A stretch of DNA of 64,000 nucleotides. Origin: Candidatus Woesearchaeota archaeon (GTDB lineage: Archaea > Nanobdellota > Nanobdellia > Woesearchaeales > 21-14-0-10-32-9). The notes beneath the pieces were generated by a model. The model saw only the letters and a list, made by a program, of their open reading frames with translations. It was not told the origin of the DNA and searched no databases. Every line of letters starts with the position of its first letter. Within the stretch, counting starts at the first letter, position 1. Of this stretch, positions 37,162-58,969 are shown piece by piece. The position numbers and the translations under genes were made by a program. The stretch spans positions 26,147-90,146 of the forward strand of contig JAIPET010000001.1 in the NCBI GenBank assembly GCA_021736975.1. The letters run 5' to 3'.

Positions 37162-37162
37162 T

Positions 37163-39460: not shown

Positions 39461-40516
39461 TTACAATGATAAGTACTCTACCTTAGAAGTGTTCCCTTTC
39501 TTGCCTCCAAAGACTTTGGTTACGGCAATGTATTTGTTTAATTCTAGAGCTTTTATACGCCTATAGAAGCTCCTGTAGCCTAGATCACCATTAACCTCTT
39601 GATATGCTTTAAAGAGTGCAGGGATGGTTTCTCCGTTCTTCTTTTTTACAAGATCTAGTATGTTTCTTGTAGGTTCATCTAGGTCAGAGCTTCCTTTAAT
39701 CGCATACTTGTCAATCTTATCCAAGATCTTCTTTACATGATCAAGTTTAACATATTTAGATGAAAGATTGTCAGCATATTTTCCAGCTTTCAATAGAATC
39801 AACAAACCACTTCTTATATCTCCACGATCATAAGTTTGATCAACTGCAAATGCGAATGAATCATTTTCAAAACATCCTTTACAAAAAGCATGATCAACTC
39901 TTTCCTTAAGAATTCCTCTTGTTTCTTCTAAATTGTATTTTTTAAATTCTACACATTCAAGAAATAATCTTGATCTAATTCTGTTATCTATTGATGATAA
40001 TAATTTCCCTTTGTGGTTAGTTATTAATATGATGCTGTATCTTAAAATGTGTTCAGTGATTGTGTAAAGAAAATCTAGATCTTCAGCTTTATCAATTTCA
40101 TCGAAGACAAATACTGCACTTGATTTGTTAATCCTATCTGCTATCTCTTTGAATAGTTCAACTCCCTTCTTGTTGTTAGTAAATGGATAATTTAATTGCT
40201 CACAAATATATAAGGCAATTTTGTAAGTAGTATTGTGTTGCCAGCAATTAACATAAATTGGTGTGATAGAGTCTGTTTCTTCTTCAAGCTCTTTAATGAT
40301 ATTTTTACATGCAAGGGTTTTCCCAATACCTGAAGAACCGTAAACTAAAACATTCTCTCCTTTCTGATTTTTGAAGAGAGGTTTTATACAGTTAGCTATT
40401 GCGAACTGATGATTTTCTCTATATCTTATTAGCTTCGGCTGATAGTCGAAATCAAGAACATGAATGTTTTTGAAAACACATTCATCAGCAGTTAGCATAT
40501 CCTTGAACAGTGTCAT
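39461..40516 (-). CDS. Orc1/Cdc6-family AAA+ replication initiator
   Basis: Walker A VYGSSGIGKT, Walker B VFVFDEIDK, C-terminal winged-helix-like region, about 350 aa; AT-rich upstream region with palindromes. Confidence 0.7.
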   Translation of the reverse strand: MTLFKDMLTADECVFKNIHVLDFDYQPKLIRYRENHQFAIANCIKPLFKNQKGENVLVYGSSGIGKTLACKNIIKELEEETDSITPIYVNCWQHNTTYKIALYICEQLNYPFTNNKKGVELFKEIADRINKSSAVFVFDEIDKAEDLDFLYTITEHILRYSIILITNHKGKLLSSIDNRIRSRLFLECVEFKKYNLEETRGILKERVDHAFCKGCFENDSFAFAVDQTYDRGDIRSGLLILLKAGKYADNLSSKYVKLDHVKKILDKIDKYAIKGSSDLDEPTRNILDLVKKKNGETIPALFKAYQEVNGDLGYRSFYRRIKALELNKYIAVTKVFGGKKGNTSKVEYLSL

Positions 40517-42172: not shown

Positions 42173-43057
42173 TTAGTCAACCATTTTCTTTACATTGTGT
42201 TTCATAAAGATCTGATTTTGCATCATTGCTATGGCTTCTTCTTCTGCAATGTTTTCTTTTGGTTTAGTGCTTGCTTCTGATTGTGGTGTGATTACAATCT
42301 TCACTAGGTTTGTGAGTTCTGCAATTTGATCTTTAAGACTACTAATCTCTTTGTTGTGCTTTTCTTCTGTCGAATTAAATACGCTATTGACTATGTCTCG
42401 TTTTGCTTTCATGCTTGTTTTGATATATCGTTCAGTTGACCTAAGATTCTTATGCCTTCCACAGATTTGTGCGGCGAATACACCTCTTGAATCACAGATC
42501 TTCTGCAGATAATAATGTCTTAATGTATGATAACTTAGAACCGATAGTTTATGTCCTGTTGCAGATGTGCTATATTTGTGATCAAGCCCAGCTGCTTTTC
42601 TGAACCTTATAGTTCTTGATCTAATTGTTCCAGGACTAAGATGTTTTTCACCAGTGTATGAATACCTTCCAGAACTAGGTGGTCTTCCACACCTCGACAT
42701 GCGACCGTATTTCATCCTCCAAAAGATGTAATTATCAGAAAGAAGTATTTGCTGTTTGTAAGTTAAGATATGATTCTTTAATCTCTCGATCATAAAGTCA
42801 GGAATGATTATCTTTTCTCCTTTCTCTTTGTTTTTTTGTTCAGGGAGGATTAAAGTTTTTTCAACAAAATCTATGTGATCAACTTTTATGCTACAAGTCT
42901 CAATGCTTCTTAATCCTAGTTCACTAGCACAGTAATATATGTTCTCCCAAAACATAACATAGTCTGAATCATACCTTGATTCCACATCTCTTACTGCTTG
43001 CATAAATATATTGAATTGTGCTTCAGTAATTGATTTTTGTTTTGCTTCTTGTGCCAT
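42173..43057 (-). CDS. int: tyrosine recombinase / integrase (paralog 1)
   Basis: LRSIETC (Arg), HTLRHYY (H-x-x-R), RSTERY (Tyr) catalytic residues. Confidence 0.75.
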   Translation of the reverse strand: MAQEAKQKSITEAQFNIFMQAVRDVESRYDSDYVMFWENIYYCASELGLRSIETCSIKVDHIDFVEKTLILPEQKNKEKGEKIIIPDFMIERLKNHILTYKQQILLSDNYIFWRMKYGRMSRCGRPPSSGRYSYTGEKHLSPGTIRSRTIRFRKAAGLDHKYSTSATGHKLSVLSYHTLRHYYLQKICDSRGVFAAQICGRHKNLRSTERYIKTSMKAKRDIVNSVFNSTEEKHNKEISSLKDQIAELTNLVKIVITPQSEASTKPKENIAEEEAIAMMQNQIFMKHNVKKMVD

Positions 43058-44350: not shown

Positions 44351-45349
44351 TTGGAATCGAAAAACTCAAGAGGTCCGTTCGGACATCGAAACGAAGCTAA
44401 AGAAAAAACAATAACAGATGAACAATTCGAGAGATTCATTAAAGCAGTTGCATTTGTAGAAGAACCTGAGTATATCGCTTTTTGGGAGAACATATACTAT
44501 TGTGCATCATACTTGGGTCTTAGAAGTATTGAAACATGCAAAGTAAGAATAGAAGATATTGACTTTTTAGCCAAAACCCTCACATTACCCGAACAAAAGA
44601 ATAAGGTTCGATTTGAAAAGATCATTATCCCTGATTTCATGCTTGAAAGACTAAAAGAACACATAATAAAATACAAAGCCCAAATTATCATAAATTCAGA
44701 ATATGGTAGCTTAATTCACGATCCAAGAATCATATCCAAAGCAAAAAAGCAAGAACTCAAAGGAGAATATTATCTCTTCTGGAGAATGAAGCAAAAAATC
44801 AGAGGTTGTAAACGATACAATGAGAAACACATGGATACTTCTACTATCAGAACTCACTTAATCAAAACTAGAAAGACTGCAGGTCTTGACATGAAATACG
44901 GAATGACCAACACAGGTCATGCATTATCCATCCTAAGTTACCATACCCTTAGGCATTATTATCTGCAGAAGATTTGTGATCAAAGAGGAGTCTTTGCGGC
45001 TCAGATAAGTGGTCGACATAAGAATTTACGATCTACAGAAAGATATTTGACAACTTCATTAACAGCCAAACAATCTATTGTCAATGAAGTATTCAATGTT
45101 CAATCACAACATGAATCGGCAGAAATTGCATCTCTAAAACATGAGATCCAGGAGCTGAAAGAAATTATGAAGGCTTCTGTCTTGCTTAGCAATGGCAATC
45201 CCAGAAACATCAAAAATCAAAATAGGATAGCAGTAGAAGAATCAGAAAGTTATATGCAAAATCGAGCATTGTATCAGGCTCGTAAGATCAGACGAGTGAC
45301 CGAAGAAACTGAAGTCAGAAAAGAAGTTGTTGTAGGTGAACAATTTTAA
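44351..45349 (+). CDS. int: tyrosine recombinase / integrase (paralog 2)
   Basis: About 60% identical to 42173..43057 across the catalytic region, same R/H-x-x-R/Y residues. Confidence 0.75.
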   Translation: MESKNSRGPFGHRNEAKEKTITDEQFERFIKAVAFVEEPEYIAFWENIYYCASYLGLRSIETCKVRIEDIDFLAKTLTLPEQKNKVRFEKIIIPDFMLERLKEHIIKYKAQIIINSEYGSLIHDPRIISKAKKQELKGEYYLFWRMKQKIRGCKRYNEKHMDTSTIRTHLIKTRKTAGLDMKYGMTNTGHALSILSYHTLRHYYLQKICDQRGVFAAQISGRHKNLRSTERYLTTSLTAKQSIVNEVFNVQSQHESAEIASLKHEIQELKEIMKASVLLSNGNPRNIKNQNRIAVEESESYMQNRALYQARKIRRVTEETEVRKEVVVGEQF

Positions 45350-45666
45350 TCTGATTCAAGATCATACAATTTTTTGCATATCTCTTTCTTGGACTTGTCC
45401 ACTTGACAGGGCAACCGAAAACTATATATCTGTCCTATGTTTTAATGATTGTAAGTTTCCCTTAACCAAGATTCATTCCAGAAAAGGTCTGATTCGGGTT
45501 ATAACGAATTTGGGGAAAGCGTTATATTCTTGTAACGGAAATATAAATGTTTCGATTATTTATCACTATAAAGTAACAAAATTATTGTTTGTGTTTTTTA
45601 TAGTTATTTATGAATATAGCTTAAAATATAGTTAGCTTTTTATAAAGAGGATTTTTTTTTAAAATA

Positions 45667-48069
45667 ATGAAATACGAATTAATAGGATTAGGAAACCCGA
45701 TGATGGATATAATGTTAGAAGTCTCTGATGAAAAATTACAAGAATTAAATTTACAAAAAGGACAATGCAACTTAGTAGATGAAGAAACAATAAAAAAATT
45801 AGAATCGCAAATAGATGAATCAAATGGAAAATTGATTTTAGGCGGATCAGTATCAAATATGATTGCAATATTCTCGCAATTAGGCGGAAAATCAAAATTT
45901 ATAGGAAAAATAGGTTCTGACAAAATAGGTCAAAAATATGAAGAAGGAATGAAAAAAATAGGAGTAGATCCAAATCTAATAATTTCTGAAAAAATGACAG
46001 GACGAAATTTAAATTTTGTGACTCCAGACTCAGAAAGAACAATGACAGTTCATCTAGGTTCTGCATTAACATTAAGATCAGAAGACATATCAGAAGAGAT
46101 AATACAAGAAACAAAATATTTCCAAGTAGCAGGATACGTATTAGAAGACGAAAATCTAAGAACTGCAACAATAAAAGCATTCAAAATAGCAAAACAAAAA
46201 GGAGCAAAAATATCAATAGACTTAGCAGATCCATGGCTGGTAGAAAGATGTAAAAACTCTTTATTAGATATAGTTAAAGAACACGCAGACATATTATTTG
46301 CAAACGAAGAAGAAGCAAAAAAAATAACAGGAAAAGAAACAGCAAAAGAATCAATAGAAGAACTATCAAAATATGTAGATTTAGTAATTGTAAAAATAGG
46401 AAAAGAAGGAAGCATAATAAAAAAACAAAACGAAAAAATAATCACAATAAAAGGATTTAAAGTAGAAGCAAAAGACACAACAGGAGCAGGGGATAGCTAC
46501 GCAGGAGCATTCTTATATGGATTAACACAAAATTGGCCACTAGAAAAAACAGGAAAACTAGCATCCTTTATAGCATCAGAAGTTGTAAAAATCATAGGTG
46601 CAAGATTAACAAAAATACCTGAATACGAACACATATTCAAAAATACATTTTCAACGGAGGAAACAAAAATGGATTATAAAGTAGCAGATATATCGCAAGC
46701 AAAATACGGAAGACAAGAAATAACAATAGCAGAAAAAGAAATGCCAGGACTAATAGCACTAAGAGAAAAATACGGCGAAGAAAAACCACTAAAAGGCGCA
46801 AAAATAATGGGCTCACTACACATGACAATACAAACCGCAGTACTCATAGAAACATTATCTGAATTAGGAGCAGACGTAAGATGGTGCTCATGCAATATTT
46901 ATAGTACACAAGACCATGCAGCAGCAGCAATAGCACAAACAGGAATACCTGTATTTGCATGGAAAGGAGAAACACTAAAAGAATACTGGTGGTGCACAGA
47001 ACAAGCACTAACTTGGCCAGATGGAACAGGACCAGACCTAATAGTTGATGATGGAAGCGACGCAACAATGCTCGTTCACAAAGGAGCTGCAGCTGAAAAA
47101 AATCCTGCTTTGCTAAACATTGATTACAGTAGTGAGGGTGAAGATTACCAAGAACTAATAAAATTAATAAAAGAATCATATCAAAAAGACAAAACTAAAT
47201 GGACAAAAATCGCTGAATACATAAAAGGAGTAAGCGAAGAAACAACAACAGGCGTAAATAGACTATACCAAATGATGAAAAACAAAGAATTACTATTTCC
47301 TGCAATAAACGTGAATGACTCAGTAACAAAAAGCAAATTTGACAACCTATACGGCTGCAGAGAATCATTAGCAGACGGAATCAAAAGAGGAACAGACGTA
47401 ATGATAGCAGGAAAAAAAGTTTTAGTATGCGGATATGGAGATGTAGGGAAAGGATGCGCACACAGCATGAAAAGCTATGGTGCTAGAGTTACAGTAACCG
47501 AAATAGATCCAATATGCGCATTACAAGCAGCAATGGAAGGATACGAAGTAAAAACCATTGAAGATGTCGTATCGGATGTAGATATATTTGTAACAACAAC
47601 AGGAAATAAAGACATAATAACAATACAGCACATGGAAAAAATGAAAGACAACGCAATAGTTTGCAACATCGGACATTTTGACAACGAAATCCAAGTAGAA
47701 AAACTAGAAAAATATCCAGGAATAAAAGAAGAAAACATAAAACCACAAGTAGACAAATTCGAATTCCCAGACGGACATTCAATAGTTTTACTAAGTAGAG
47801 GAAGACTAGTAAATCTAGGAAATGCAACAGGACACCCAAGCTTTGTAATGAGTAACAGTTTTACAAACCAAGTACTAGCACAAATAGAACTATGGAAAAA
47901 CAAACACGAAATAGGAGTAAGCGTACTTCCAAAAGAACTAGACGAAGAAGTAGCAAGACTGCACTTAGCAAAAATAGGAGTGAAACTAACTAAACTAAGC
48001 AAAGAACAAGCAGACTACATAAACGTTAAACAAGAAGGACCATATAAACCAAATCACTATAGGTATTAA
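45667..48069 (+). CDS. fused adenosine kinase (PfkB family) and S-adenosyl-L-homocysteine hydrolase
   Basis: N-terminal half has the PfkB signature [13 protein letters not shown]; C-terminal half has SAHH hallmarks ([20 protein letters not shown]-binding [10 protein letters not shown]); single uninterrupted 800-aa ORF. Confidence 0.8.
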
Positions 48070-48258
48070 TTTTTTTTTTATTTTTTACTTTTTGGGCATG
48101 CATAAATTATGTATTTATATCCGCGGAAAAAATATGGATGCGACCGTAATCAGCTAATGCTGATTGAATATAGTTGTTTTATGTGTTTTTTCTGCAAGAA
48201 AAAAAGCCGAAGGCTCAGTTCAAAAAATATTTTTCGCACTTCTTCAAAAACGAGCTTT

Positions 48259-48717
48259 TTACTTTTCAAAATAAGTTTTATATGACCTTAAAGTTGCATT
48301 TCCTATGCTTCTTGAACCAAAATTCCTATATAGAAATCCTAAAAATCCTGGAAATTGTACATTACTTATAATTAGATGAAAATTGACAACCTTGCCTTTA
48401 CTAGAAAACTCACAAAAATAATGTGACTTTCCATTCATCTTTTTTCCGGCTTGGTATTCTTCATCGAATTCAATTACAAATTTATCTGTTTGGACACTTT
48501 TAACAATATTTGTACGTTTCATAAGTCCTTCATTGTTTTTAATTATTACAAAATCCTTCCCTTCCTTATCCAAAACAACATTTGAAATTCCAGGCATTAG
48601 GCTAACTACACCAACAAAATGTTTCCCAATTTCTGCAAGTGATTTTTTAACTTTTTGTATATCGCAATCAATTTGATTAGAACCATCGAACCAAACAGAT
48701 TTTTTTAATTTAGTCAT
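48259..48717 (-). CDS. hypothetical protein
   Basis: 152-aa ORF bracketed by an 18-bp perfect inverted repeat. Confidence 0.4.
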   Translation of the reverse strand: MTKLKKSVWFDGSNQIDCDIQKVKKSLAEIGKHFVGVVSLMPGISNVVLDKEGKDFVIIKNNEGLMKRTNIVKSVQTDKFVIEFDEEYQAGKKMNGKSHYFCEFSSKGKVVNFHLIISNVQFPGFLGFLYRNFGSRSIGNATLRSYKTYFEK

Positions 48718-48897
48718 ATAAAACTTATTTCTTTATTATTATATAAATGTATTCGTCATCCAAGATAAATATTTTTTTAATTGAATGCGCTATGTGTTAA
48801 ATGATTGTGTGGTAGAATGAAAGAAGCAATATTTTGTTTAAATGTTGATAAGTTGTGTGAGGCAAAGTCGAAACCCGTAGATTTTTATTATTGCGCG

Positions 48898-49179
48898 TTA
48901 TTTGTAAATATTTTTTCTATGGCCTATTTCAATAACAATAATTAAAAGTTTGCCTGCTTTAATGTCAATAATTACTCTATAGTCTCCAACTCGTAATCTA
49001 AAATAAGGAGAAGCAACTAATTTTTTAACGTGAGAATGTGGTCTAATTCTACATCTTTCTAATGTAGAAATAATTCTTCTAGAATCTTGTTTATTTAGTT
49101 TATTTAGGAATTTTTTAGATTCGTTTGTAAAAAAAAGATCAAACACTAAAAAATCACCTCGTGATTTTGTGTGCACCAA
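48898..49179 (-). CDS. RelE/ParE-family type II toxin
   Basis: ...YFRLRVGDYRVIIDI...IIVIEIGHRKNIYK. Confidence 0.7.
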   Translation of the reverse strand: MVHTKSRGDFLVFDLFFTNESKKFLNKLNKQDSRRIISTLERCRIRPHSHVKKLVASPYFRLRVGDYRVIIDIKAGKLLIIVIEIGHRKNIYK

Positions 49180-49203
49180 AAATTTTTAATTTTTAAGTGC
49201 ATT

Positions 49204-49422
49204 TTACATTCCTAATTCCTTTTTAACATCTTCAAGAGAATAAACTCTTCCTGCTTTAATATCTTCTTCAGCTAGTTTGATTCTTTTTTTAGTTTCTTCA
49301 GATAATTCCATGGAATCCTCTAAAGCATCCCAAATTACTTCTTCATAAGATTCTTTATCATACATCTTTCTCTCTTTTAGTTTTGAGAGCAATTCTTGAC
49401 TTACTGATATTGTTGTTGCCAT
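49204..49422 (-). CDS. antitoxin candidate (RelB-like) upstream of RelE
   Basis: 72-aa acidic protein immediately upstream of and co-oriented with the toxin. Confidence 0.45.
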   Translation of the reverse strand: MATTISVSQELLSKLKERKMYDKESYEEVIWDALEDSMELSEETKKRIKLAEEDIKAGRVYSLEDVKKELGM

Positions 49423-49999
49423 AACAACTATATAATTGACTATATATATAAATATTTTGTTTTTTTAAGGCTTAAAAGAAAATTAGAACCTAAATACAAT
49501 TGCAACTAATCCTTGTAGGGCTGAAATTTAGTACCTCGTTCCGAAGGAAAATTTTTGAGTAAGCGGGCGGGCGACATTCTAAGCAAATTGGGATAGGATT
49601 ACTAAAGAAATTATTGCAAGAACAGATTTAATACCTGTATCGGGACATGAATATACTCATAGAGTGCAACATAACAATGGAGTTGTGTCTAAAAAATATT
49701 CAATATTTATGGAAGGTCATGCAAGGGGAGTGCAAAGACAATTATCTGAAGATTATCAAGAGTGAGAAGACAACGAAGCATTTCTCTATAACATTTTGGA
49801 CATCACAGTTGGAGAATTTAAAAGTACATATTTATGGATGTGTAAAAAGTTAGGCCAAGAACCAAGTAAAAGTTTGTTAAAAACAAAAAGCATACGAAGC
49901 AGGAAGAAAATAAATTTTACTTTTTTTTAGCTTTCCTTTATTCTTATTTTATCTTTCGGTTTAGTCAAAGCCCTATTCTATTTTTAGCCCAAATCTCAA

Positions 50000-50042
50000 A
50001 TTGCAATTAATCCTTGTTATACGTTTTTTCTGCAAGAAAAAA
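50000..50042 (+). repeat. dif-like site followed by the hairpin TTTTTTCTGCAAGAAAAAA; start of a 130-bp repeat module
   Basis: ATTGCAATTAA-TCCTTG-TTATACG then a perfect 8-bp stem with GCA loop; the module 50000-50130 is about 95% identical to 56125-56245. Confidence 0.6.
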
Positions 50043-50155
50043 AGCTGAAGGCTCAGTTAAATTTTCACGTTAATAAATATCGACCAAAGGGAGCCTATAT
50101 GTCCGAAGGACGAGTTGGGGCGTTTTAAATAGTTAAATATATAATGAGTTAATGT

Positions 50156-51159
50156 TTGTTTGTTCTTATGGTTGCAAACGATGATGAAATTAGAACAATA
50201 TTCAAATCATTAGATTTAAACATAAATAATATTTCTAAAGTCAAAACACTTGCTAATTTCTTGGTTAAAGTTGAAACTGATAAAGGGAATTATTTTCTAA
50301 AGATTTATGATAGTAAAATAGAAGCTAAGACAGGTTACAAATTAGCTCATTTGTATCCGCTTTTATTAGAAAATAATATTCCTGTTCCAAAAGTTGTCAA
50401 ATATGATGACAGTTTAGAATTAGTTAAGCATCCTTACTTGATAATTACTGAAATTGAAGGTCAAATGCTTTGCGATGTAATTGAGACAATGAGCAGAAAA
50501 GAAAAAGTTTCTTTTTATTATGAATTTGGAAAAATAATTGCGAATTTCCATTCAATTACTTTTGATAAATTCGGAGAAACTTTTGATGGTAAAACTGTTC
50601 AGAATTTTACTGAAGCAAATAATAAAGGTCCGTTTGATAATTGGAAAGATATGCATAAAGAAATAATCGAATTTAGGTTAAATATTTTCAGAAACTCAAG
50701 TTTTGAAGATCTAATTGAACCTATTAGTTCTTGGTTTGAAAAAAATTCAGATCTTATTGATTATCATATTACTCCGAGACTACTTCATATTGATTTAAAT
50801 CAAAAAAATGTATTCGTGAATAATAATAAAATTTCAGGAATAATTGATTTTGATGGAGCTTTTGTTGGACATAATGAAGAAGAATTAATGAGAACTGAAG
50901 GTGCAAATTTTTCAAATGATGAAGAATTAAAGCAATCATTTTTCGAATGATATACAGAAATTATTAAATTAGATTCTGATTATGAACTACGAAGAAAATA
51001 CTATTATTTTGCAAGATTACTTGTTCATACTGATTGCATAATTCAATATGGTGAAAGTTATGTTGATGTTAAAAAAGAAGGAGATATTGTTAGAAAAGAA
51101 ATTTTTAAATTATTAAATGATGAAGAAATTGATTTTAATAAGAATAAGCGAAATACTTA
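50156..51159 (+). pseudogene. aminoglycoside/choline-kinase-type phosphotransferase (APH family) with in-frame TGA at 50948-50950
   Basis: HIDLNQKNVFV (HxDLxxxN) and IIDFDGAF (DFG/IDxD) motifs; the same frame stays open for 69 more codons after the TGA, giving a typical family length of about 334 aa. Confidence 0.55.
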
Positions 51160-51214
51160 ATCTAGCTCCAACTCTTTTTGTTTCTTTTTTCTAAAAAGAA
51201 AATAGTGAAAATTT

Positions 51215-51238
51215 AATTGCGTATAAGCCTTGTTATAC
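51215..51238 (+). repeat. dif-like palindromic site ATTGCGTATAA-GCCTTG-TTATACG
   Basis: 7-bp perfect inverted arms CGTATAA/TTATACG around a 6-bp spacer; a member of an at least 10-copy family, all in + orientation, lying between the single-gene units. Confidence 0.6.
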
Positions 51239-51302
51239 GTTTTTTCTGCAAGAAAAAATCGCGAAGTGAAACGTAGCGACAGTATGACGCAAGGTGGTGG
51301 CG

Positions 51303-51860
51303 TTACAGAAGTGGCTTAATATTATTAAATAATTCTTCAAATTCAATATATCCTGCTTCCTCGTTAAAGTGTCCTGCATTTTTTATAATATTAGGTATTG
51401 CACCAAGTTTATCTGCTAACTCATTTGCACATTCTATTGGAACGTAAGGGTCATTATCTGAATGATAAATAAAGAATTGTTTACAATTTTGTTTTATCTT
51501 TGACCAATCAAAGGTTTTATCTACAAATGTTCTATTGATTGAATCAAAAGTTTCATTTCCTAATAATTTTAAGAAACCTGAAATGAAATATGAACCTTTG
51601 ATTGTTACATTAATATGTTCCAATACACTTAGTAAAAATGCAGGTGCTAAACTATGACCTACAAAAATGGTATTCTCATCAATTTGGTTTTCATATTCTG
51701 CAAAAATAGTATTCCAGTTTTCCAATGATTGATTTTCAGGAGTTGGAAATTCAGGAACAATCACTTCGTGATTTAATTCTTCTAATTTTTGCTTTAACCA
51801 AGGAAACCAGTTTTCTTTTGGATTACCAAAAGCACCATGAATGAGGAAAATTTTTGTCAT
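51303..51860 (-). CDS. alpha/beta hydrolase (YdeN/RBBP9-like serine hydrolase)
   Basis: 185 aa, GHSLA nucleophile elbow, D and H later in the sequence. Confidence 0.55.
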   Translation of the reverse strand: MTKIFLIHGAFGNPKENWFPWLKQKLEELNHEVIVPEFPTPENQSLENWNTIFAEYENQIDENTIFVGHSLAPAFLLSVLEHINVTIKGSYFISGFLKLLGNETFDSINRTFVDKTFDWSKIKQNCKQFFIYHSDNDPYVPIECANELADKLGAIPNIIKNAGHFNEEAGYIEFEELFNNIKPLL

Positions 51861-51920
51861 AATAATATAATAGAAAGCAGGATTTTATAAGATTTGTGAT
51901 TAAGCCACCACCTGAGTAAT

Positions 51921-51944
51921 ATTGCGTATAATCCTTGTTAAACT
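51921..51944 (+). repeat. dif-like site (right arm degenerate)
   Basis: ATTGCGTATAA-TCCTTG-TTAAACT. Confidence 0.5.
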
Positions 51945-52064
51945 CTCCGTTAGGATTGATTTTTAGTGCAACGATGCCGAAGGCAAAAAATCAAAGTCGA
52001 GAAAGAGGGCGTTCTATTTAATGAGCGAATGCAATACATCAAGAACAGGAATATAGGGGCACAC

Positions 52065-52982
52065 TCACGTTTCTTTTAGTTCATATACATTATCCAATAA
52101 ATCTGGCTTTGGAATTGAAGATAATTCTCCTTTACTTCCACTTTTAACCCATTTAATATGCCATAAATATAGAAGTCCGACAGACATTTGTTCTAAATAT
52201 ATTCCTAATGTCCAAATTATTCCTTCATAAATTATTACTACTGTCCAAAATAAAGATGAGAATGCAACACCAGATTTATCCAAATAAATAATTATTATCA
52301 ATGGAATAGCCATAAATAATGATGCAATACCTGTTAAAGTATATGTTGTAATAAATTGTAATGGATGTTTTTTTATGACTTCAAGAGATCTTTTAAACGC
52401 TGAAAATGGTCCTTTATTTTCCCAAGCAATAGCTGGTAATGTTAAAAAGATGTACATTCTAACTAATTTTTCAAACATTCTTAATCCGAGTTTTAACCAA
52501 CTAAAGGGTCCAGAGTTTGCTCCTCCTAATGTTAATGCAGCATCTCTAGGAGATGGTTCTGGTCTTGAACTTCTTCCTTTCTTTTTACTAGTTAAAACTC
52601 TAATAATTAGTAGAATAAACCAAACAATTGCCCAAATTAGCGCGACTGGAATTACTTTTATCAAATCTAAAAATACTGCTTCTTTTATTGCTTTTCCAAA
52701 TGATATTTTTTCTCCGAATTCAATCTGTTGCATGAATTCAAGCATCATAATATTTGCAACACAAATAATTAATGTAATCAGGAAAATTACTCCAAATATA
52801 ATTAATAGTAGTAATCCTAAATCATTTGGTGCTTCAAAATAATACCTTAGATATAATATAATTGATGCAACTAAAATCCATGAGAAAAATATTGGGATTA
52901 GAAAAATTGGTTTTCTAAAAAGAAATTTGAATGAATCAGTAAAAAGTTTCCATCCTTCGCCTAGTTTACCTAAAAATGCCAT
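52065..52982 (-). CDS. polytopic membrane protein
   Basis: 305 aa with several hydrophobic helices; flanked by two nested perfect 14-bp inverted repeats. Confidence 0.45.
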   Translation of the reverse strand: MAFLGKLGEGWKLFTDSFKFLFRKPIFLIPIFFSWILVASIILYLRYYFEAPNDLGLLLLIIFGVIFLITLIICVANIMMLEFMQQIEFGEKISFGKAIKEAVFLDLIKVIPVALIWAIVWFILLIIRVLTSKKKGRSSRPEPSPRDAALTLGGANSGPFSWLKLGLRMFEKLVRMYIFLTLPAIAWENKGPFSAFKRSLEVIKKHPLQFITTYTLTGIASLFMAIPLIIIIYLDKSGVAFSSLFWTVVIIYEGIIWTLGIYLEQMSVGLLYLWHIKWVKSGSKGELSSIPKPDLLDNVYELKET

Positions 52983-53084
52983 TTAAATATTAAATGTCAA
53001 GAGTAATATATAAATATTTCTAGAGTGAGTGTGCCCCTTTCAAATCTTTAGCCCTCTTTCTCGATTGAGTTTAAGTGCTGTTAT

Positions 53085-53125
53085 CTTTCCTGACGACCAA
53101 AGGGAGGAAAGCGCAGCGGGGCTCG
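53085..53125 (+). repeat. repeat module B: CGACGACYRAARGGAGGARAGCGCAGCGGGGC
   Basis: Copies at 53085-53125, 53958-53995 and 58897-58930, partial at 60072-60100; contains the SD-like AAAGGAGG. Confidence 0.5.
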
Positions 53126-53299
53126 AAGGTGTAGCGAAGCGGAACCATCGAGAGTTGAGAATAAGTCCGTCCATCAGATGAACGAAGTGGTACATCTAGA
53201 CAAATCATCGAGGGGTTTGGTTGTTAGAAAACTTGTTGCCACTAAATAGAGACTATAAAGCGAAAGGTTTTTAAATACATAATCATTTTCCTTTTTAAA

Positions 53300-53902
53300 A
53301 TGACAATAATAATTCCAAAATATTCAGAATCAAAAATTGTTGAACCAACAAAACAAGATTATCAACAACTAAGTATTGATATGCCTGATAAGAAAAATAT
53401 AAGATTAGCATCATTAGATGAAATAAAAACTTTTTCTGGAGTTGATTTATCATATGGAGTTCCAATTATTAAAAAAGGATTTTTTGGAAATAAAAATTCA
53501 GATTTATATGCACCAACTGATGAAGATTGTTCTAGATTAGGAATAGAAAATAATTATGCCGTATCTCAAGAAGGTGATGTAATGCTAAAAAGTTATTCTT
53601 TAGAAGATGGTGTTGCATATGTTTCTGATCCACATGGAAGTTTAGTTGAAACTTTTGCAAAAAGTTCAGCAATAGCATCGGATGTAATCAAAAATGGAAT
53701 TGTAAATATGAAAGTATTTATCAAAGATGCAGGTATTGGAAATTTAGTATTAACCCATCCTGATGTGGGTACTTCTTTAAAAAATCATGGATCAAAATTT
53801 GTTGATACCTTATTTCCAAATTATAGAAAAATAATGGCAACAATACCAGATTCAAGTTCGCAAGGTATAACATCTAACGGACTAGAATATGCATTATATT
53901 AA
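53300..53902 (+). CDS. hypothetical protein
   Basis: 200-aa ORF; TATA-like TTTTTAAATA about 25 bp upstream; flanked by a 14-bp perfect inverted repeat. Confidence 0.45.
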   Translation: MTIIIPKYSESKIVEPTKQDYQQLSIDMPDKKNIRLASLDEIKTFSGVDLSYGVPIIKKGFFGNKNSDLYAPTDEDCSRLGIENNYAVSQEGDVMLKSYSLEDGVAYVSDPHGSLVETFAKSSAIASDVIKNGIVNMKVFIKDAGIGNLVLTHPDVGTSLKNHGSKFVDTLFPNYRKIMATIPDSSSQGITSNGLEYALY

Positions 53903-54102
53903 ACCAAACCCCCTTCTTTTTTTTAGGACTTATTCTCAATTGAAGATAATTCCTGTTATGTCTCCCGACGACTAAAAGGAGGAGAGCGCAGCGGGGCAAA
54001 ATCCAAAGGATTTTGAGTTCAGAATTCGGGCGTTATTAATATTAACTTTAAAGTGGTAACAGTACCGAAAGATTTATAAATATAAAGTCAATTCATTTTA
54101 TT

Positions 54103-54387
54103 ATGAGATTATATCAAAAAATTATCGCTGGAGGAATAGTAATTGCTGGTTTGGCTGGACTTACTGGATGTAAAGATAATTCTAATCAAGAATCTCAAAG
54201 AAATGAACCTGCTCCATCACATTTTGCGACAGTTCCAATGGTTTATGAAACTGGAATGTCAATGACGAGTGGAGATTTTGATGGAGATGGAGATTTAGAT
54301 TTGATTGTTGGAGCAAAATATCCTGGAAAAAGCGAAGGACGAGTTTATAGATTCAACAATGATGGAGAAGGTAATCTTTCTCAGTAA
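54103..54387 (+). CDS. lipoprotein with FG-GAP/VCBS-like repeat
   Basis: Signal peptide and lipobox LTGC; DFDGDGDLDLIVGAKY; TATA-like TTTATAAATA about 25 bp upstream. Confidence 0.5.
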   Translation: MRLYQKIIAGGIVIAGLAGLTGCKDNSNQESQRNEPAPSHFATVPMVYETGMSMTSGDFDGDGDLDLIVGAKYPGKSEGRVYRFNNDGEGNLSQ

Positions 54388-54433
54388 ATCTTTCGGTTTC
54401 TATAATTATACTTTTAGCCCGAATTCTGAATTA

Positions 54434-54472
54434 GACATAATCCTTGTTATACGTTTTTTCTGCAAGAAAAAA
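54434..54472 (+). repeat. dif-like half site plus hairpin TTTTTTCTGCAAGAAAAAA
   Basis: ...ATAA-TCCTTG-TTATACG followed by the hairpin; a variant module is shared with 51239-51300. Confidence 0.5.
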
Positions 54473-54518
54473 TTGCGAAATGAAATGGAGCAACAGTATG
54501 ACGCAGAGAGCTTTTCCG

Positions 54519-55016
54519 TTACTTGTTGAAAAAATTAATACATTCTGGAATTACTTTTAGAAAATTCTCTGGAGAATTATTTAAACTTTGAAGTAATTCC
54601 TCTTTTGAAAACCATTTGATTTTTTCAACTTCATCTTCTTGAATTGTAAATTGTTTTATATCTTTATCGACTAAAGCAAAAAACCATTGAGTAAAATGTT
54701 TGTGTTCTCCATCGTGAAAATGATGAAATGACTTTTGAAATTTTTGATTCTTTAAACCAATCTCTTCTTCAGCTTCTTTAACAATATTGGATTCATATGA
54801 TTCTCCTTCATCAATAGTTCCAGCAACTGCTGGACCCCATTTCCCAGGATTATTTTTTTTGTTAAATGATCTTTGTGCAAGGAGAATCTCGCCATTAGAA
54901 TTTTGAATCCATAAAGCTGAAACTCTATAAATATCAGATTGGTTTAAAGTTCCTCTTTCTTTAGAACCTATGATTTCATCATTTTCATTTACAATAACTA
55001 TTTTTGCTTTAGACAT
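54519..55016 (-). CDS. NUDIX hydrolase
   Basis: Nudix box GTIDEGESYESNIVKEAEEEIGL. Confidence 0.75.
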   Translation of the reverse strand: MSKAKIVIVNENDEIIGSKERGTLNQSDIYRVSALWIQNSNGEILLAQRSFNKKNNPGKWGPAVAGTIDEGESYESNIVKEAEEEIGLKNQKFQKSFHHFHDGEHKHFTQWFFALVDKDIKQFTIQEDEVEKIKWFSKEELLQSLNNSPENFLKVIPECINFFNK

Positions 55017-55075
55017 ATCTTTTTACAATTCAAGAAGTAATATAAATTTATCGAAAGGAAAAGCTCTCGAGTAAT

Positions 55076-55099
55076 ATTGCGTATAACCCTTGTTATATT
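55076..55099 (+). repeat. dif-like site
   Basis: ATTGCGTATAA-CCCTTG-TTATATT. Confidence 0.5.
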
Positions 55100-55167
55100 C
55101 CCCGTAGGGCAGAAATTTAGTGCAACGTCCCGAAGGGAAATTTCAGAGTTTTGGAAATGGGCCGTCA

Positions 55168-56064
55168 TTAAAAATTTGATATTAAAAAATCTGTAACAAC
55201 TTTTGCTAATTCTTCTTCCTTATCTTCAAAATCGTGATTAGTTTTTGGAATAATTACTGCTTTGGTTCTGCTGTTACTTTTCTTCAATAATTCAACTGAT
55301 TCGTTGACTGACATCATCATATGTTCAGAACCTTCTTTAACAACATCTGCATTTGTGAATTTGTCATTATTTGAAATTACTGCCAAAATAGGAACTTTAA
55401 TTTTAGAATAAAAATCCAATTTCTTTAGACGAAATGGAAATGCTTTAGATAATTCTGAATTGTCTGAAAACTGATTTATGAACGATTCGGCACTTTTTGG
55501 CAGTATCCCTGCGTGACTATACCATTGTGTTGTTAAAAATTGTTCTCTTTTATCTTTTTCAATTAGGTTTTTTGCTTCAGTAAATAAGTCATCTTTACAG
55601 TTAGTTTTATCCATGAATTTATGGGCACAACCAAAAGAATCAGAAAAACCTAAAAGTACAATTCCAGTAATTTTATCTTTATACTTTCCTTTATTCATGT
55701 AATAAACAATTTTTTCAGTTCCTAAACTATGGCCTTGTAGGATTATGTTTGAATATCCCTTATTTATGACAAATTCAATCCATGCATCAATATCCAAAAG
55801 ACAATCCTCAAAATTCTCGACCGCTGAGCCTGTTTTTTGCCAAGTGTGTGTCAAAACAGAATTTCCTCTGTTGTTAATTGATAACCACGAGAATCCATTT
55901 TTGGGAAAAGCAACAGCCATATTCTCAAAGAATGGCTCTTCATAAAAATTGCTTGCAGAACCATGAATATTAATCACGATTTTGTCTGAATTTTTATTTT
56001 CCAAAAATAATCCGTGAAGAATTAACTTGTCTTTTGTTGTTACAGATACTATTGGGTATTTCAT
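55168..56064 (-). CDS. alpha/beta hydrolase (esterase/lipase-like)
   Basis: GHSLG nucleophile motif, 298 aa. Confidence 0.6.
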   Translation of the reverse strand: MKYPIVSVTTKDKLILHGLFLENKNSDKIVINIHGSASNFYEEPFFENMAVAFPKNGFSWLSINNRGNSVLTHTWQKTGSAVENFEDCLLDIDAWIEFVINKGYSNIILQGHSLGTEKIVYYMNKGKYKDKITGIVLLGFSDSFGCAHKFMDKTNCKDDLFTEAKNLIEKDKREQFLTTQWYSHAGILPKSAESFINQFSDNSELSKAFPFRLKKLDFYSKIKVPILAVISNNDKFTNADVVKEGSEHMMMSVNESVELLKKSNSRTKAVIIPKTNHDFEDKEEELAKVVTDFLISNF

Positions 56065-56124
56065 ATCTATATAGATTTGAAGAAGAATTAAAAAGATTTC
56101 GTTTTAGGCCCCTTTCCAAAATTG

Positions 56125-56245
56125 AATATAAGCTCTGTTATACGTTTTTTCTGCAAGAAAAAAAGCCGAAGGCTCAATTAAATTTTCACGTCAATCAATA
56201 ACGACCAAAGGGAGCCAATATGTCCGAAGGACGAGGGGGGTCCAG
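56125..56245 (+). repeat. dif-like half site, hairpin and 100-bp repeat module (second copy)
   Basis: Near-identical to 50000-50130; ends in the left inverted repeat of the next unit. Confidence 0.6.
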
Positions 56246-56286
56246 ATTTTTTGTTTCTTTTTTTTTAAAAAAGAATATTGAATCTT

Positions 56287-58877: not shown

Positions 58878-58897
58878 CGTATATCCCTTGTTATACG
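58878..58897 (+). repeat. dif-like site
   Basis: CCGTATAT-CCCTTG-TTATACG. Confidence 0.5.
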
Positions 58898-58969
58898 CCC
58901 CGACGACTGAAAGGAGGAGAGCGCAGCGTGGTGCGAACGAAGTGAGCAAGTCAGTGGAGTGGCGTTAAT

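What the first reader, a model, noticed from the sequence alone, without database searches (positions are those of the whole stretch)
45667..48069. Single ORF fusing adenosine kinase (PfkB) to S-adenosylhomocysteine hydrolase
The N-terminal about 330 aa carry the PfkB signature [13 protein letters not shown]. The C-terminal about 470 aa are a complete SAHH (NAD-binding [27 protein letters not shown]). The junction is continuous (...[34 protein letters not shown]...). A fusion would couple the reversible SAH hydrolysis directly to adenosine removal, a neat solution for a reduced genome. Composition changes sharply here to a strongly A-rich coding strand, which also generates long spurious antisense ORFs.
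Basis: seen in the sequence. Interest (0 to 1): 0.6.

Follow-up and report, generated by a model that had tools for sequence, protein, structure and literature searches.

The report
Natural adenosine kinase–SAH hydrolase fusion
One real 800-codon gene in a probable DPANN archaeon joins an adenosine-kinase-type enzyme to a complete S-adenosylhomocysteine hydrolase; it formed recently when the stop codon between two neighbouring genes was lost, a rare and apparently undescribed arrangement that is biochemically unsurprising.

Summary
ORF 45667-48069 (+) encodes 800 aa: a PfkB kinase (Pfam 1.9e-49; best solved relatives are bacterial adenosine kinases, E 4e-43), a roughly 15-residue linker predicted to be disordered, and a full long-form SAHH (TIGR00936, 624 bits against a cutoff of 498). 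All catalytic motifs are intact. Two independent read-run assemblies match the window exactly, so an artefact is unlikely. Profile searches find about 23 such fusions (90% clusters), nearly all labelled DPANN archaea, against thousands of stand-alone SAHHs. The window's fusion is an independent, young event. Its kinase half is sister (100% bootstrap) to an unfused kinase whose gene is followed by a separate SAHH gene. The window's linker, [10 protein letters not shown], is the translated former intergenic spacer and still carries the SAHH ribosome-binding site (GGAGG-N8-ATG). Unfused kinase-SAHH pairs occur in related archaea and some bacteria. The likely function is kinetic coupling: ATP-driven removal of adenosine pulls the unfavourable SAH hydrolysis. 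Activity, substrate specificity and any channelling are inferred, not shown. The sharp composition change is real; the flanks are mobile DNA (a provirus and a cassette array). No paper describing the fusion was found. Verdict: a new variant of a known kind, of modest interest.

The parts
45639..45646 (+). TATA-like box TTTATAAA, about 25 nt upstream of the ATG (putative archaeal promoter with a short or absent leader)
   Evidence: Read directly from the sequence. TTTAWA-like boxes lie 25-40 nt upstream of the start codons of the five other fusion genes examined. This is an inference, not a tested promoter.
45667..46638 (+). Kinase half (residues 1-324): PfkB/ribokinase-fold kinase of the adenosine-kinase subfamily
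   Evidence: Pfam PF00294, E 1.9e-49. Best solved relatives are 3ubo 'adenosine kinase' (E 4.3e-43) and 4e3a (E 8.5e-43), followed by eukaryotic adenosine kinases. Motifs GLGNPMMD 7-14, GGSVSN 59-64, NEEE 213-216 and DTTGAGD 270-276 are present and invariant among relatives. Model pLDDT is about 90.
46639..46668 (+). Linker [10 protein letters not shown] (residues 325-334): the translated former intergenic spacer. The former stop-codon position is about 46642-46644, and an A5 run lies at 46639-46643.
   Evidence: DNA alignment with the unfused sister locus L010, whose kinase ends ...EHIFE-TAA. Residues 324-339 have pLDDT below 50. Linker length and sequence are unconserved across fusions. A +/-1 change in the A5 run would give a stop 3-4 codons after Met335.
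46656..46671 (+). Relic (possibly still active) ribosome-binding site and start codon of SAHH: GGAGG (46656-46660), 8-nt spacer, ATG of Met335 (46669-46671)
   Evidence: Window GGAGGAAACAAAAATG versus L010 GGAGGAATAAAAAATG in front of its separate SAHH gene. Unfused SAHH genes in L011, L012 and L005 also have GGTGG or GGTGA 6-9 nt upstream.
46669..48066 (+). SAHH half (residues 335-800): complete long-form, NAD-dependent S-adenosyl-L-homocysteine hydrolase
   Evidence: TIGR00936, 624 bits against a 497.6 cutoff. PF05221 E 4.7e-150 and PF00670 E 2.3e-85. 64-68% identical to solved SAHHs (6uk3 E 6e-214). Motifs SLHMT 383-387, DDGSDA 461-466, EETTTG 524-529, [11 protein letters not shown] 550-560, GYGDVGKG 589-596, GHFDNEI 669-675, TGHPSFVMS 721-729 and the C-terminal YKPNHYRY 793-800 are present.
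48067..48094 (+). TAA stop followed by a T-rich tract (T10 A T6 ...), a likely archaeal-type termination signal
   Evidence: Read from the sequence. Inference.
48172..48223 (.). First copy of a repeated intergenic element that bounds the neighbouring cassette-like array. It is not part of the gene, but it marks the right-hand edge of the native locus and explains why other assemblies break here.
   Evidence: the repeat finder family D6 has copies at 48172, 50010, 51226 and 56131. Both Logan contigs end at window position 48214.
45621..48002 (-). Antisense ORFs of 93-175 aa inside the gene: spurious
   Evidence: Listed. Stops are rare on the T-rich antisense strand. They lie wholly within a gene whose sense-strand product has very strong homology.

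Best explanation
This is a genuine bifunctional gene of a DPANN-type archaeon. Its product has three parts: an N-terminal adenosine-kinase-type PfkB domain (about residues 1-320), a flexible linker of about 15 residues, and a C-terminal long-form NAD-dependent SAH hydrolase (335-800). It arose recently in this lineage from an adjacent, co-oriented kinase->SAHH gene pair. The kinase stop codon was lost, so translation now runs in frame through about 30 nt of former spacer, including the SAHH ribosome-binding site, into the SAHH start codon. Proposed mechanism (inferred): the SAHH halves assemble into the usual homotetramer. The C-terminal tail needed for this is left free because the kinase is attached at the N-terminus, so four kinase domains are tethered at the periphery. 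SAHH splits SAH into homocysteine and adenosine, a reaction whose equilibrium favours synthesis. The tethered kinase phosphorylates adenosine to AMP using ATP. That pulls net hydrolysis, keeps inhibitory adenosine and SAH low, salvages the purine, and fixes a 1:1 stoichiometry without extra regulation. Shown here: the ORF, the identity and completeness of both domains, the intact motifs, the predicted disorder of the linker, the origin of the junction, recurrence in other genomes, and adjacency of the two genes in unfused relatives. Inferred: catalytic activities, adenosine specificity, oligomeric state and kinetic coupling.
For: ORF and domains. Solved-structure relatives: kinase; SAHH. Catalytic motifs intact in both halves and invariant across 20 fusions. 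AlphaFold model: two confident domains with a disordered 324-339 linker. Not an artefact: two independent run assemblies are 100% DNA-identical, and a second NCBI assembly shares the adjoining region. Same architecture elsewhere: 21 full-length plus 2 truncated clusters at 1108-1495 bits against at most 1030 bits for stand-alone SAHHs, with variable linkers. Pre-fusion state in the nearest relatives: L011 and L012 have kinase then SAHH 13 and 9 nt apart; L010 has a 183-nt spacer with GGAGGAATAAAAAATG before SAHH. Kinase tree: window + unfused P0271 at 100% bootstrap, while other fusions form separate clades at 98-100%. Functional linkage: adjacency also in a Pacearchaeota genome in reverse order and in 7 of 80 representative genomes, including bacteria. 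Native locus: RNase_T and aminotransferase synteny with L011 and L008 at 59% identity each. [quoted passage not shown] Established knowledge (not tested here): SAH hydrolysis is thermodynamically unfavourable and is driven by product removal, and the SAHH C-terminal tail contributes to the neighbouring subunit's NAD site.
Against: No biochemical data exist for any member. No curated NCBIfam kinase model passes its cutoff; the best sub-threshold hits are iolC_N at 149 bits and ribokinase at 113 bits, so adenosine specificity rests on 35-40% identity to structural-genomics 'adenosine kinase' entries and on gene context. The fusion is young and its sister lineage is unfused, so it could be a nearly neutral read-through that selection has not yet tested. 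The retained GGAGG-N8-ATG could still produce free SAHH. A single +/-1 change in an A5 run would restore two overlapping genes, and raw reads were not inspected. The model gives no defined inter-domain interface (pTM 0.46), so there is no evidence for a channel as opposed to simple proximity.
Confidence: 0.8

Rival explanations
1. Sequencing or assembly artefact: the true genome has two genes (kinase, then SAHH), and a missed stop or a homopolymer-length error has merged them.
For: The sister lineage is unfused. The junction is A-rich with A5 runs, and a +/-1 change at 46639-46643 gives a stop 3-4 codons after Met335, a plausible overlapping-gene layout. An intact RBS and ATG precede the SAHH half.
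Against: Two separate run assemblies (SRR12088350 and SRR12088351) and the MAG contig are identical base for base. About 22 other genomes carry the same architecture with quite different linkers. A5 runs are not error-prone in short-read assemblies (general knowledge).
Confidence: 0.04
2. The fused ORF is real but is a young, effectively neutral read-through. Most SAHH is still made separately from the internal GGAGG-N8-ATG, so the cell behaves as if it had two genes and no selected coupling exists in this lineage.
For: A perfect Shine-Dalgarno-like motif and ATG are retained at the old SAHH start. The same holds in two other fusions that fall outside the well-supported fused clades (P0002: GGAGG-N5-ATG; P0012: GGTGA-N7-ATG), but not in members of those deeper fused clades (P0003, P0015, P0020). 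The linker is simply the old spacer.
Against: Independent recurrence of the same fusion, and its persistence through well-supported, diverged clades (kinase halves only 34-46% identical to the window's), argue that the fused state is tolerated and probably favoured. Whatever happens at the internal start, ribosomes starting at 45667 must produce the full-length protein. Whether DPANN archaea use Shine-Dalgarno-type initiation inside ORFs is unknown.
Confidence: 0.15
3. The N-terminal half is not an adenosine kinase. It is another PfkB enzyme (a broad nucleoside, inosine/guanosine, ribose or sugar kinase), so the fusion links SAHH to a different reaction.
For: No NCBIfam equivalog passes its cutoff; the top sub-threshold hits are iolC_N, ribokinase and R1P kinase. 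The PDB names for 3ubo and 4e3a come from structural genomics. Archaeal PfkB nucleoside kinases such as MJ0406 (2c49, E 2.8e-14) are broad in specificity (general knowledge).
Against: The best matches by a margin of about 18 orders of magnitude in E-value are the adenosine-kinase subfamily, followed by eukaryotic adenosine kinases over the full length. The N-terminal GxGNxxxD motif resembles that of adenosine kinases (comparison from memory). Repeated adjacency and fusion to the one enzyme that releases adenosine is strong context evidence. NCBI names the stand-alone relatives 'adenosine kinase'.
Confidence: 0.1
4. The gene is foreign cargo, brought in by the neighbouring provirus, integrase or cassette array, which would explain its aberrant codon usage.
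For: It lies between an integrase (44351-45349) and a repeat-bounded cassette array (48172 onward). Its codon usage is unlike that of every neighbour.
Against: Synteny supports a native locus. RNase_T and the aminotransferase, which flank the kinase/SAHH genes in L011 and L008, lie just beyond the array here, at 59% identity each, so the array looks like the insertion. No repeat or att-like site was found upstream of the gene. Core genes to the right show the same direction of strand-linked A/T skew, though weaker, while both mobile blocks are unskewed.
Confidence: 0.1

Closest known systems
Unfused, adjacent adenosine kinase (PfkB) and SAHH (ahcY) gene pairs in Woesearchaeota/Nanoarchaeota-type archaea and some bacteria (L010, L011, L012, L008, L014, L016, L074, L083, L092)
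   Same: The same two protein families (kinase 43-69% identical, SAHH 70-85%), the same order in most cases, and gaps of 9-190 nt. These pairs are the direct evolutionary precursor.
   Different: They are two polypeptides with their own stop codon and RBS. The window has lost the stop and translates the spacer.
Other PfkB-AdoHcyase fusion proteins in public metagenomes (P0002-P0018, P0020, P0021, P0023; labelled Woesearchaeota, Pacearchaeota or 'archaeon'; annotated only as 'adenosylhomocysteinase')
   Same: The same architecture and domain order, about 793-823 aa, 52-63% identity overall, and invariant catalytic residues.
   Different: They do not share an origin with the window's fusion. The window's kinase half groups with an unfused kinase at 100% bootstrap, while these form other clades. 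Their linkers differ in length (10-50 aa) and sequence, and members of the deeper fused clades have lost the relic RBS.
Non-covalent SAHH-adenosine kinase association in plants
   Same: [quoted passage not shown]
   Different: In plants these are separate eukaryotic proteins, the interaction is non-covalent and regulated, and the ADK belongs to the eukaryotic subfamily.
SAHH-like proteins with N-terminal extensions (AHCYL1/IRBIT, PDB 3mtg; AHCYL2, 3gvp)
   Same: They show that the SAHH fold tolerates an added N-terminal module (hits; their biology is from general knowledge).
   Different: Their extension is a regulatory, largely disordered region and the SAHH-like domain is catalytically inactive. 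Here the added module is a complete enzyme and the SAHH motifs are intact.
Engineered SAM-regeneration cascades that combine SAHH with adenosine kinase (in vitro biocatalysis; from memory, not checked here)
   Same: The same logic: phosphorylating adenosine pulls SAH cleavage and recycles the nucleoside.
   Different: Those are mixtures of separate enzymes, not a natural single polypeptide.

Membership tests
S-adenosyl-L-homocysteine hydrolase (AdoHcyase; TIGR00936 / PF05221+PF00670) | Full-length match above the curated family threshold | tested here: met
   TIGR00936 scores 624.2 bits against a 497.6 cutoff and covers profile 1-416/416. PF05221 covers 1-299/299 at E 4.7e-150.
S-adenosyl-L-homocysteine hydrolase (AdoHcyase; TIGR00936 / PF05221+PF00670) | NAD-binding Rossmann motif GxGxxGxG and the conserved catalytic His/Asp/Glu/Lys/Asp/His positions | tested here: met
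   GYGDVGKG 589-596; [35 protein letters not shown] and TGHPSFVMS are all present and invariant in 20 fusions. The assignment of roles to these motifs comes from the literature on rat and human SAHH (from memory).
S-adenosyl-L-homocysteine hydrolase (AdoHcyase; TIGR00936 / PF05221+PF00670) | Free C-terminal tail (Lys/Tyr) that completes the neighbouring subunit's cofactor site in the tetramer | tested here: met
   The protein ends ...[10 protein letters not shown]-stop, as in 6uk3 (...GPYKPDHYRY). The kinase is attached at the other end. Tetramer formation itself was not tested.
S-adenosyl-L-homocysteine hydrolase (AdoHcyase; TIGR00936 / PF05221+PF00670) | SAH hydrolase activity (as opposed to S-inosylhomocysteine hydrolase activity) | not testable with these tools
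   The sequence is far closer to true SAHHs (E 1e-214) than to the archaeal SIH hydrolase 7r3a (E 3e-87). An enzyme assay is needed.
PfkB / ribokinase-like kinase superfamily (PF00294) | Pfam match above the gathering threshold, plus the GG, NxxE and DTxGAGD motifs | tested here: met
   169.1 bits against 25.8. GG 59-60, N213/E216 and DTTGAGD 270-276 are present and invariant.
Adenosine kinase (EC 2.7.1.20), bacterial-type subfamily exemplified by PDB 3ubo / 4e3a | Closest characterised or solved relatives are adenosine kinases, over the full length | tested here: met
   3ubo E 4.3e-43 (residues 2-313) and 4e3a E 8.5e-43. The next non-ADK hit is at E 3.4e-25, and eukaryotic ADKs are at 1e-17 to 1e-21. 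The names are the depositors' own.
Adenosine kinase (EC 2.7.1.20), bacterial-type subfamily exemplified by PDB 3ubo / 4e3a | Match to a curated equivalog model above its cutoff | tested here: inconclusive
   No NCBIfam kinase model passes its cutoff, and no adenosine-kinase model appears among the best 25 of the 36 families matched (only 25 were shown). This may reflect the library rather than the protein.
Adenosine kinase (EC 2.7.1.20), bacterial-type subfamily exemplified by PDB 3ubo / 4e3a | Phosphorylation of adenosine preferred over other nucleosides or sugars | not testable with these tools
   Only context evidence is available: repeated adjacency and fusion to SAHH.
The existing clade(s) of DPANN PfkB-AdoHcyase fusion proteins (membership by descent) | Same domain architecture and order | tested here: met
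The existing clade(s) of DPANN PfkB-AdoHcyase fusion proteins (membership by descent) | Shared origin of the fusion event (fused proteins monophyletic) | tested here: not met
   Kinase tree: window + unfused P0271 at 100% bootstrap, while the other fusions fall in separate clades at 98-100%. SAHH tree: fusion monophyly recovered in 0 of 100 replicates, though the deep nodes are unresolved. The junction is derived from the window lineage's own spacer. So it works like these proteins but is a convergent member.
Integron (side observation: array at 48.2-61 kb) | attC sites that fold as long imperfect hairpins, next to an IntI-type integrase | tested here: inconclusive
   The recombinase at 61038-61853 scores 193 bits on NF040815 (XerA / integron integrase; cutoff 220) and 187 bits on TIGR02249 (cutoff 265). 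The repeats carry a dif-like 11-6-11 core, but as single-stranded DNA they fold no better than shuffled sequence in most cases (z from -2.7 to +0.5).

The most novel reading that the evidence does not exclude
The same kinase-SAHH fusion has been invented several times independently in DPANN archaea because tethering gives a real kinetic advantage. Under this reading a tetrameric SAHH core with four tethered adenosine kinases acts as a SAH-to-AMP 'metabolon', handing adenosine over without release to bulk solvent. In the young fusions (the window, P0002 and P0012), the retained internal ribosome-binding site would let one gene produce both full-length enzyme and free SAHH, tuning the kinase:hydrolase ratio.
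Probability: 0.2. Interest if true: 0.55.

Novelty: new variant of a known kind. Interest (0 to 1): 0.35.

Why it matters
If the inferred coupling holds, SAH is a potent inhibitor of nearly all SAM-dependent methyltransferases, and its hydrolysis only proceeds if adenosine and homocysteine are removed. A natural single-chain kinase-hydrolase would then be a compact solution for organisms with minimal genomes and few regulators. It could also serve as a ready-made part for SAM-regeneration biocatalysis. For evolutionary biology the window offers an unusually clear snapshot of how gene fusions arise: the unfused sister, the lost stop codon and the old ribosome-binding site frozen inside the linker can all be seen, alongside older independent fusions in which that relic has decayed. 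Public annotation calls all of these proteins simply 'adenosylhomocysteinase', so the architecture is currently hidden. The fusion also acts as Rosetta-stone evidence that this poorly characterised bacterial/archaeal PfkB subfamily acts on adenosine.

Tried and rejected
(1) The search of protein representatives with the full protein. The 50%-identity clustering folds the fusions into SAHH clusters, so it could not count them. It yielded only two stand-alone kinases (P0193, P0255) and some unrelated long SAHH-containing proteins.

(2) A tree of the SAHH halves. SAHH is too conserved: deep bootstraps were 10-40%. It could neither prove nor disprove a single origin, so the kinase tree was used instead.

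(3) A genome-contig scan with the kinase alignment. It was useful only for adjacency statistics and not for DPANN taxonomy.

(4) The search for homologous proteins with the kinase half did not list P0001 or any other known fusion. The list is therefore not exhaustive, and absence from it was not used as evidence.

(5) The idea that the fusion gene is provirus or cassette cargo. No att-like direct repeat or dif-like site was found upstream of the gene, and the synteny of RNase_T and the aminotransferase argues for a native locus. Rejected as the main explanation.

(6) The idea that the Logan contigs end at 48214 because of an element boundary. The break is explained instead by a dispersed repeat at 48172-48223.

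(7) A possible SAH riboswitch or other known RNA in L010's 183-nt GC-rich spacer. Rfam found nothing at E<=1, and the fold z-score was only -1.5.

(8) The repeats to the right of the gene as classical attC hairpins. This was not supported by ssDNA folding.

(9) Foldseek of the whole model against the PDB. It matched only the SAHH half; no solved chain has both domains.

(10) Six literature searches for the fusion found no description of it. Absence from this library is not proof of absence.
Full report
OBSERVATION. The window has one uninterrupted ORF at 45667-48069 on the + strand (ATG start, TAA stop, 800 aa). Pfam places a PfkB kinase domain at residues 41-314 (E 1.9e-49). It places a complete AdoHcyase domain at 336-799 (E 4.7e-150, whole profile) with its NAD-binding sub-domain at 560-722. 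The NCBIfam equivalog for adenosylhomocysteinase (TIGR00936) is passed at 624 bits against a cutoff of 498.

THE TWO HALVES. By sequence, the C-terminal half is 64-68% identical to solved SAH hydrolases of the long, insertion-bearing type found in bacteria, plants and protists. These include 6uk3 (E 6e-214), 3ond, 5v96 and 4lvc. It is much further from the short archaeal enzymes and from the S-inosylhomocysteine hydrolase 7r3a (E 3e-87). All conserved catalytic and cofactor motifs are present: [52 protein letters not shown] and the C-terminal YKPNHYRY.

The N-terminal half is closest to PDB 3ubo ('adenosine kinase', E 4.3e-43) and 4e3a (E 8.5e-43). The best solved match not named adenosine kinase is at E 3.4e-25, and eukaryotic adenosine kinases follow at 1e-17 to 1e-21. 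It has the PfkB hallmarks: GG 59-60, NxxE 213-216 and DTTGAGD 270-276. It also has an N-terminal GLGNPMMD motif, which from memory resembles that of adenosine kinases. No curated NCBIfam kinase model passes its cutoff. The adenosine specificity is therefore a well-supported inference and not a demonstrated fact.

An AlphaFold2 model built on 20 fusion sequences shows two confidently folded domains (pLDDT about 90 and about 85). They are joined by a low-confidence segment at residues 324-339. The model gives no defined inter-domain packing (pTM 0.46). No solved structure contains both domains.

IS THE JUNCTION REAL? Two Logan assemblies of separate sequencing runs (SRR12088350, a 40.9-kb contig, and SRR12088351, a 4.4-kb contig) are 100% identical to the window over 12.5 kb and 4.4 kb, including the whole gene. 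A +/-1 change in the A5 run at 46639-46643 would give a stop 3-4 codons after Met335, which would mean two overlapping genes. Inspecting the reads is therefore still worthwhile, but three concordant assemblies make an artefact unlikely.

THE ARCHITECTURE ELSEWHERE. A search of 5.8 billion proteins with the window protein, and then with a profile of 20 fusions, finds 21 full-length proteins of 770-823 aa and 2 contig-truncated proteins, all with PfkB+AdoHcyase. These score 1108-1495 bits, after which only stand-alone SAHHs appear at 1030 bits or less. Only the 8000 candidates sharing the most words were scored in each search, so 23 is a lower bound.

Where the sources name an organism, the names are Woesearchaeota, Pacearchaeota or 'archaeon', with one 'Moranbacteria'. 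Their contigs carry archaeal markers: ribosomal proteins S19e and L31e, GatD, family-B DNA polymerase and TrmB. Identity to the window protein is 34-46% in the kinase half and 66-77% in the SAHH half. The linkers differ in length (about 10-50 residues) and in sequence, as expected for true inter-domain linkers. All of these proteins are annotated merely as 'adenosylhomocysteinase'.

ORIGIN OF THIS FUSION. The nearest relatives of the window's kinase half are stand-alone kinases of about 325 aa, mostly labelled Woesearchaeota or Nanoarchaeota 'adenosine kinase'. P0271 is 69% identical and many others are 45-50%. That is closer than any other fusion's kinase half. In their contigs the kinase gene is followed by a separate SAHH gene in the same orientation. 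The gap is 13 nt in L011, 9 nt in L012 and 183 nt in L010.

A neighbour-joining tree of 142 kinase sequences (200 bootstraps) pairs the window's kinase half with the unfused P0271 at 100%. Most other fusions fall in separate clades supported at 98-100%. The SAHH tree is too poorly resolved to add anything.

At the DNA level, the L010 kinase ends ...GAACATATATTTGAG-TAA, and its SAHH gene begins GGAGGAATAAAAAATG. The window reads ...GAACACATATTC-AAA-AAT-ACA-TTT-TCA-ACG-GAG-GAA-ACA-AAA-ATG. The ten linker residues [10 protein letters not shown] are therefore the translated former spacer. The old stop has been replaced at about 46642-46644. The old ribosome-binding site and start codon (GGAGG-N8-ATG, 46656-46671) survive inside the ORF.

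Two other fusions that lie outside the well-supported fused clades (P0002 and P0012) also keep an SD-like motif before a linker Met. Three members of the deep fused clades (P0003, P0015, P0020) do not. The simplest reading is that several independent stop-loss fusions of different ages occurred, at least two and probably three or four, and that the window's is among the youngest.

FUNCTIONAL LINK. The two genes are also neighbours in other genomes. In a Pacearchaeota genome that carries DNA polymerase D, they lie in the reverse order and overlap (kinase 43% identical). In 7 of 80 representative genomes sampled through the kinase family, SAHH lies within 3.5 kb of the kinase. These include a Nanoarchaeota archaeon and genomes labelled Victivallales, Desulfobacteraceae and Aestuariibacter. 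None of the 80 is fused. In plants the two enzymes are reported to interact physically (PMC7367456).

From established biochemistry, SAH hydrolysis is reversible, its equilibrium lies toward synthesis, and SAH and adenosine are inhibitory. The most likely role of the fusion is therefore kinetic coupling, in which ATP-dependent phosphorylation of adenosine to AMP pulls net SAH cleavage and salvages the purine. Attaching the kinase at the N-terminus leaves free the SAHH C-terminal tail, which in known structures completes the neighbouring subunit's NAD site. A tetramer with four peripheral kinase domains is therefore plausible. None of this was tested. The model offers no evidence of a channel as opposed to simple proximity and fixed 1:1 stoichiometry.

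In two Pacearchaeota-type loci, the fusion sits between a SAM-dependent RsmB/F methyltransferase gene and a second salvage fusion of a nucleoside phosphorylase with a phosphoribosyltransferase. That fits a purine-salvage and methylation neighbourhood.

CONTEXT AND COMPOSITION. In four-fold codon families the gene uses A 79% and T 13%, against 43%/43% in both flanks. Ile ATA is 82% against 28-30%. The flanks are mobile DNA.

To the left lies a tailed-virus-like block with a portal protein, a tape-measure protein and a diversity-generating retroelement. It also has a type I restriction-modification system, an archaeal-type Orc1/Cdc6 protein (TIGR02928, 176 bits against a cutoff of 181) and two integrases.

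To the right is a 13-kb array of short gene modules separated by a repeated element with a dif-like 11-6-11 core. It is followed by a recombinase that scores best on the archaeal XerA/integron-integrase model. The first repeat copy (48172-48223) explains why both Logan contigs stop at 48214.

Beyond the array, a second NCBI assembly gave access to an RNase_T gene and an aminotransferase gene. The RNase_T is 59% identical to the one that directly follows the unfused pair in L011. The aminotransferase is 59% identical to the one that directly precedes SAHH in the Pacearchaeota locus L008. The fusion gene is therefore at its ancestral chromosomal position, and the array is the insertion.

Core genes to the right show an A-over-T excess on the + strand at synonymous sites. 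The + strand genes have AT3 skew +0.35 and +0.38, and the - strand genes have -0.13 to -0.31, with NrdR an exception at +0.14. The fusion's bias runs in the same direction but is stronger (+0.63). That could reflect high expression, but it remains unexplained.

Taken together, the relatives, the synteny with a polymerase-D genome, the Orc1/Cdc6 protein, the XerA-like recombinase and the TATA-like box about 25 nt upstream of the ATG indicate a DPANN archaeon. The MAG's NCBI label, 'Candidatus Cloacimonetes bacterium', is probably a binning or naming error.

COMPARISON AND NOVELTY. Both enzymes and their metabolic partnership are textbook knowledge. The closest known things are listed here:
- the unfused gene pairs in related archaea and some bacteria;
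- the other unannotated DPANN fusions;
- the non-covalent plant SAHH-ADK association;
- SAHH-like proteins with N-terminal extensions;
- engineered SAHH plus ADK cascades.

By descent the window protein is not a member of the existing fusion clades; it is a convergent instance. Six full-text searches found no description of a natural ADK-SAHH fusion, which is not proof that none exists. I classify it as a new variant of a known kind.

VERDICT. The fusion is real and rare, it has arisen more than once, and it seems to be undescribed. Its likely function is what a biochemist would predict. The most instructive aspect is evolutionary: a gene fusion caught soon after it formed, with its unfused sister and its fossil ribosome-binding site both visible. 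Interest 0.35.

Noticed in passing
window 3273-11254: A diversity-generating retroelement. The template repeat at 3273-3358 matches variable repeats at 3591-3676 and 6494-6579, at the 3' ends of two (-)-strand genes (3562-4464 and 6465-7385). 28 of 29 differences fall at template T on the + strand, which is A on the coding strand. A reverse transcriptase (RVT_1+HTH_40) lies at 9581-11254, and an Rfam RT-16 RNA (84 bits) at 3359-3502 abuts the template repeat.
   Followed up: partly
window 293-45349: A tailed-virus-like block: portal 293-2392, tape measure/PhageMin_Tail 20776-24960 and a YQBQ-like protein 25349-27892. It is followed by type I R-M genes (36067-39187), an archaeal-type Orc1/Cdc6 (39461-40516; TIGR02928 176 bits against a 181 cutoff) and two tyrosine recombinases (42173-43057 and 44351-45349). 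It is probably an integrated archaeal provirus or element that ends just upstream of the fusion gene. Its ends were not determined.
   Followed up: partly
window 48172-61853: An array of short, mostly (-)-strand gene modules: ParE toxin, APH kinase, serine hydrolase, NUDIX, DUF1749 hydrolase, SSF symporter and a queuosine-salvage protein. They are separated by a repeated 50-140-nt element. Its core, ATTGCGTATAA-N6-TTATACGTTTT, looks like a Xer/dif site (3 matches, 0 expected by chance), with further variants and a second repeat family at 53034, 53909 and 58889. A recombinase at 61038-61853 scores just below the cutoffs of the archaeal XerA/integron-integrase and integron-integrase models. The repeats do not fold like classical attC sites. 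This may be an integron-like or dif-module array in an archaeon (compare PMC9668308).
   Followed up: partly
window 45667-48069, compared with the rest of the window and L098 10949-20437: The fusion gene avoids T at third codon positions far more than any neighbour (AT3 skew +0.63). Core genes right of the array show a weaker A excess on the same strand, and the mobile blocks show none. Whether the excess in the fusion gene reflects high expression, purine loading or an old xenologous replacement remains unexplained.
   Followed up: partly
whole window (taxonomic label of P0001): NCBI labels the source MAG 'Candidatus Cloacimonetes bacterium'. However, the relatives of both halves, the synteny with a DNA-polymerase-D genome, the Orc1/Cdc6 protein, the XerA-like recombinase and TATA-like promoters all point to a DPANN archaeon. 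The contig is probably mis-binned or mislabelled. NrdR and UvrD just outside the window are bacterial-type genes, so the question is not fully closed.
   Followed up: partly
L094 9535-10815; L097 9847-11118: Next to the Pacearchaeota-type kinase-SAHH fusions lies another two-enzyme salvage fusion: PNP_UDP_1 (nucleoside or MTA phosphorylase) plus Pribosyltran (phosphoribosyltransferase), 423-426 aa. A divergent RsmB/F SAM-dependent methyltransferase lies upstream. This is a conserved purine-salvage and methylation neighbourhood.
   Followed up: no
SAHH half, window 46669-48066, compared with P0025-P0120: The SAHH of these DPANN archaea is the long bacterial/eukaryotic type. It is 76-80% identical to SAHH of Bacteroidota (Marinilabiliaceae: Carboxylicivirga, Saccharicrinis), which is as close as it is to other DPANN copies. 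The kinase also belongs to a mainly bacterial subfamily. The gene pair may have crossed between domains, possibly as a unit.
   Followed up: partly
L010 2155-2336: In the unfused sister locus, the kinase-SAHH spacer is 183 nt and contains a GC-rich stretch of about 115 nt in an otherwise AT-rich contig. There was no Rfam match at E<=1, and the fold z-score was only -1.5. Its nature is unknown; it may be an insertion or a small RNA.
   Followed up: partly
P0151, P0189, P0224 (827, 800 and 824 aa); P0121 (614 aa); P0135 (745 aa): Other unusually long proteins contain SAHH-like regions. Some match in four separate stretches at about 35% identity, so they may be different SAHH fusions or duplications. 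They were not examined.
   Followed up: no
window 48898-49179 (-) and L008 1468-1731: A ParE-family toxin gene lies close to the SAHH locus both in the window and in the Pacearchaeota relative. This is probably a coincidence arising from mobile-DNA-rich regions.
   Followed up: no
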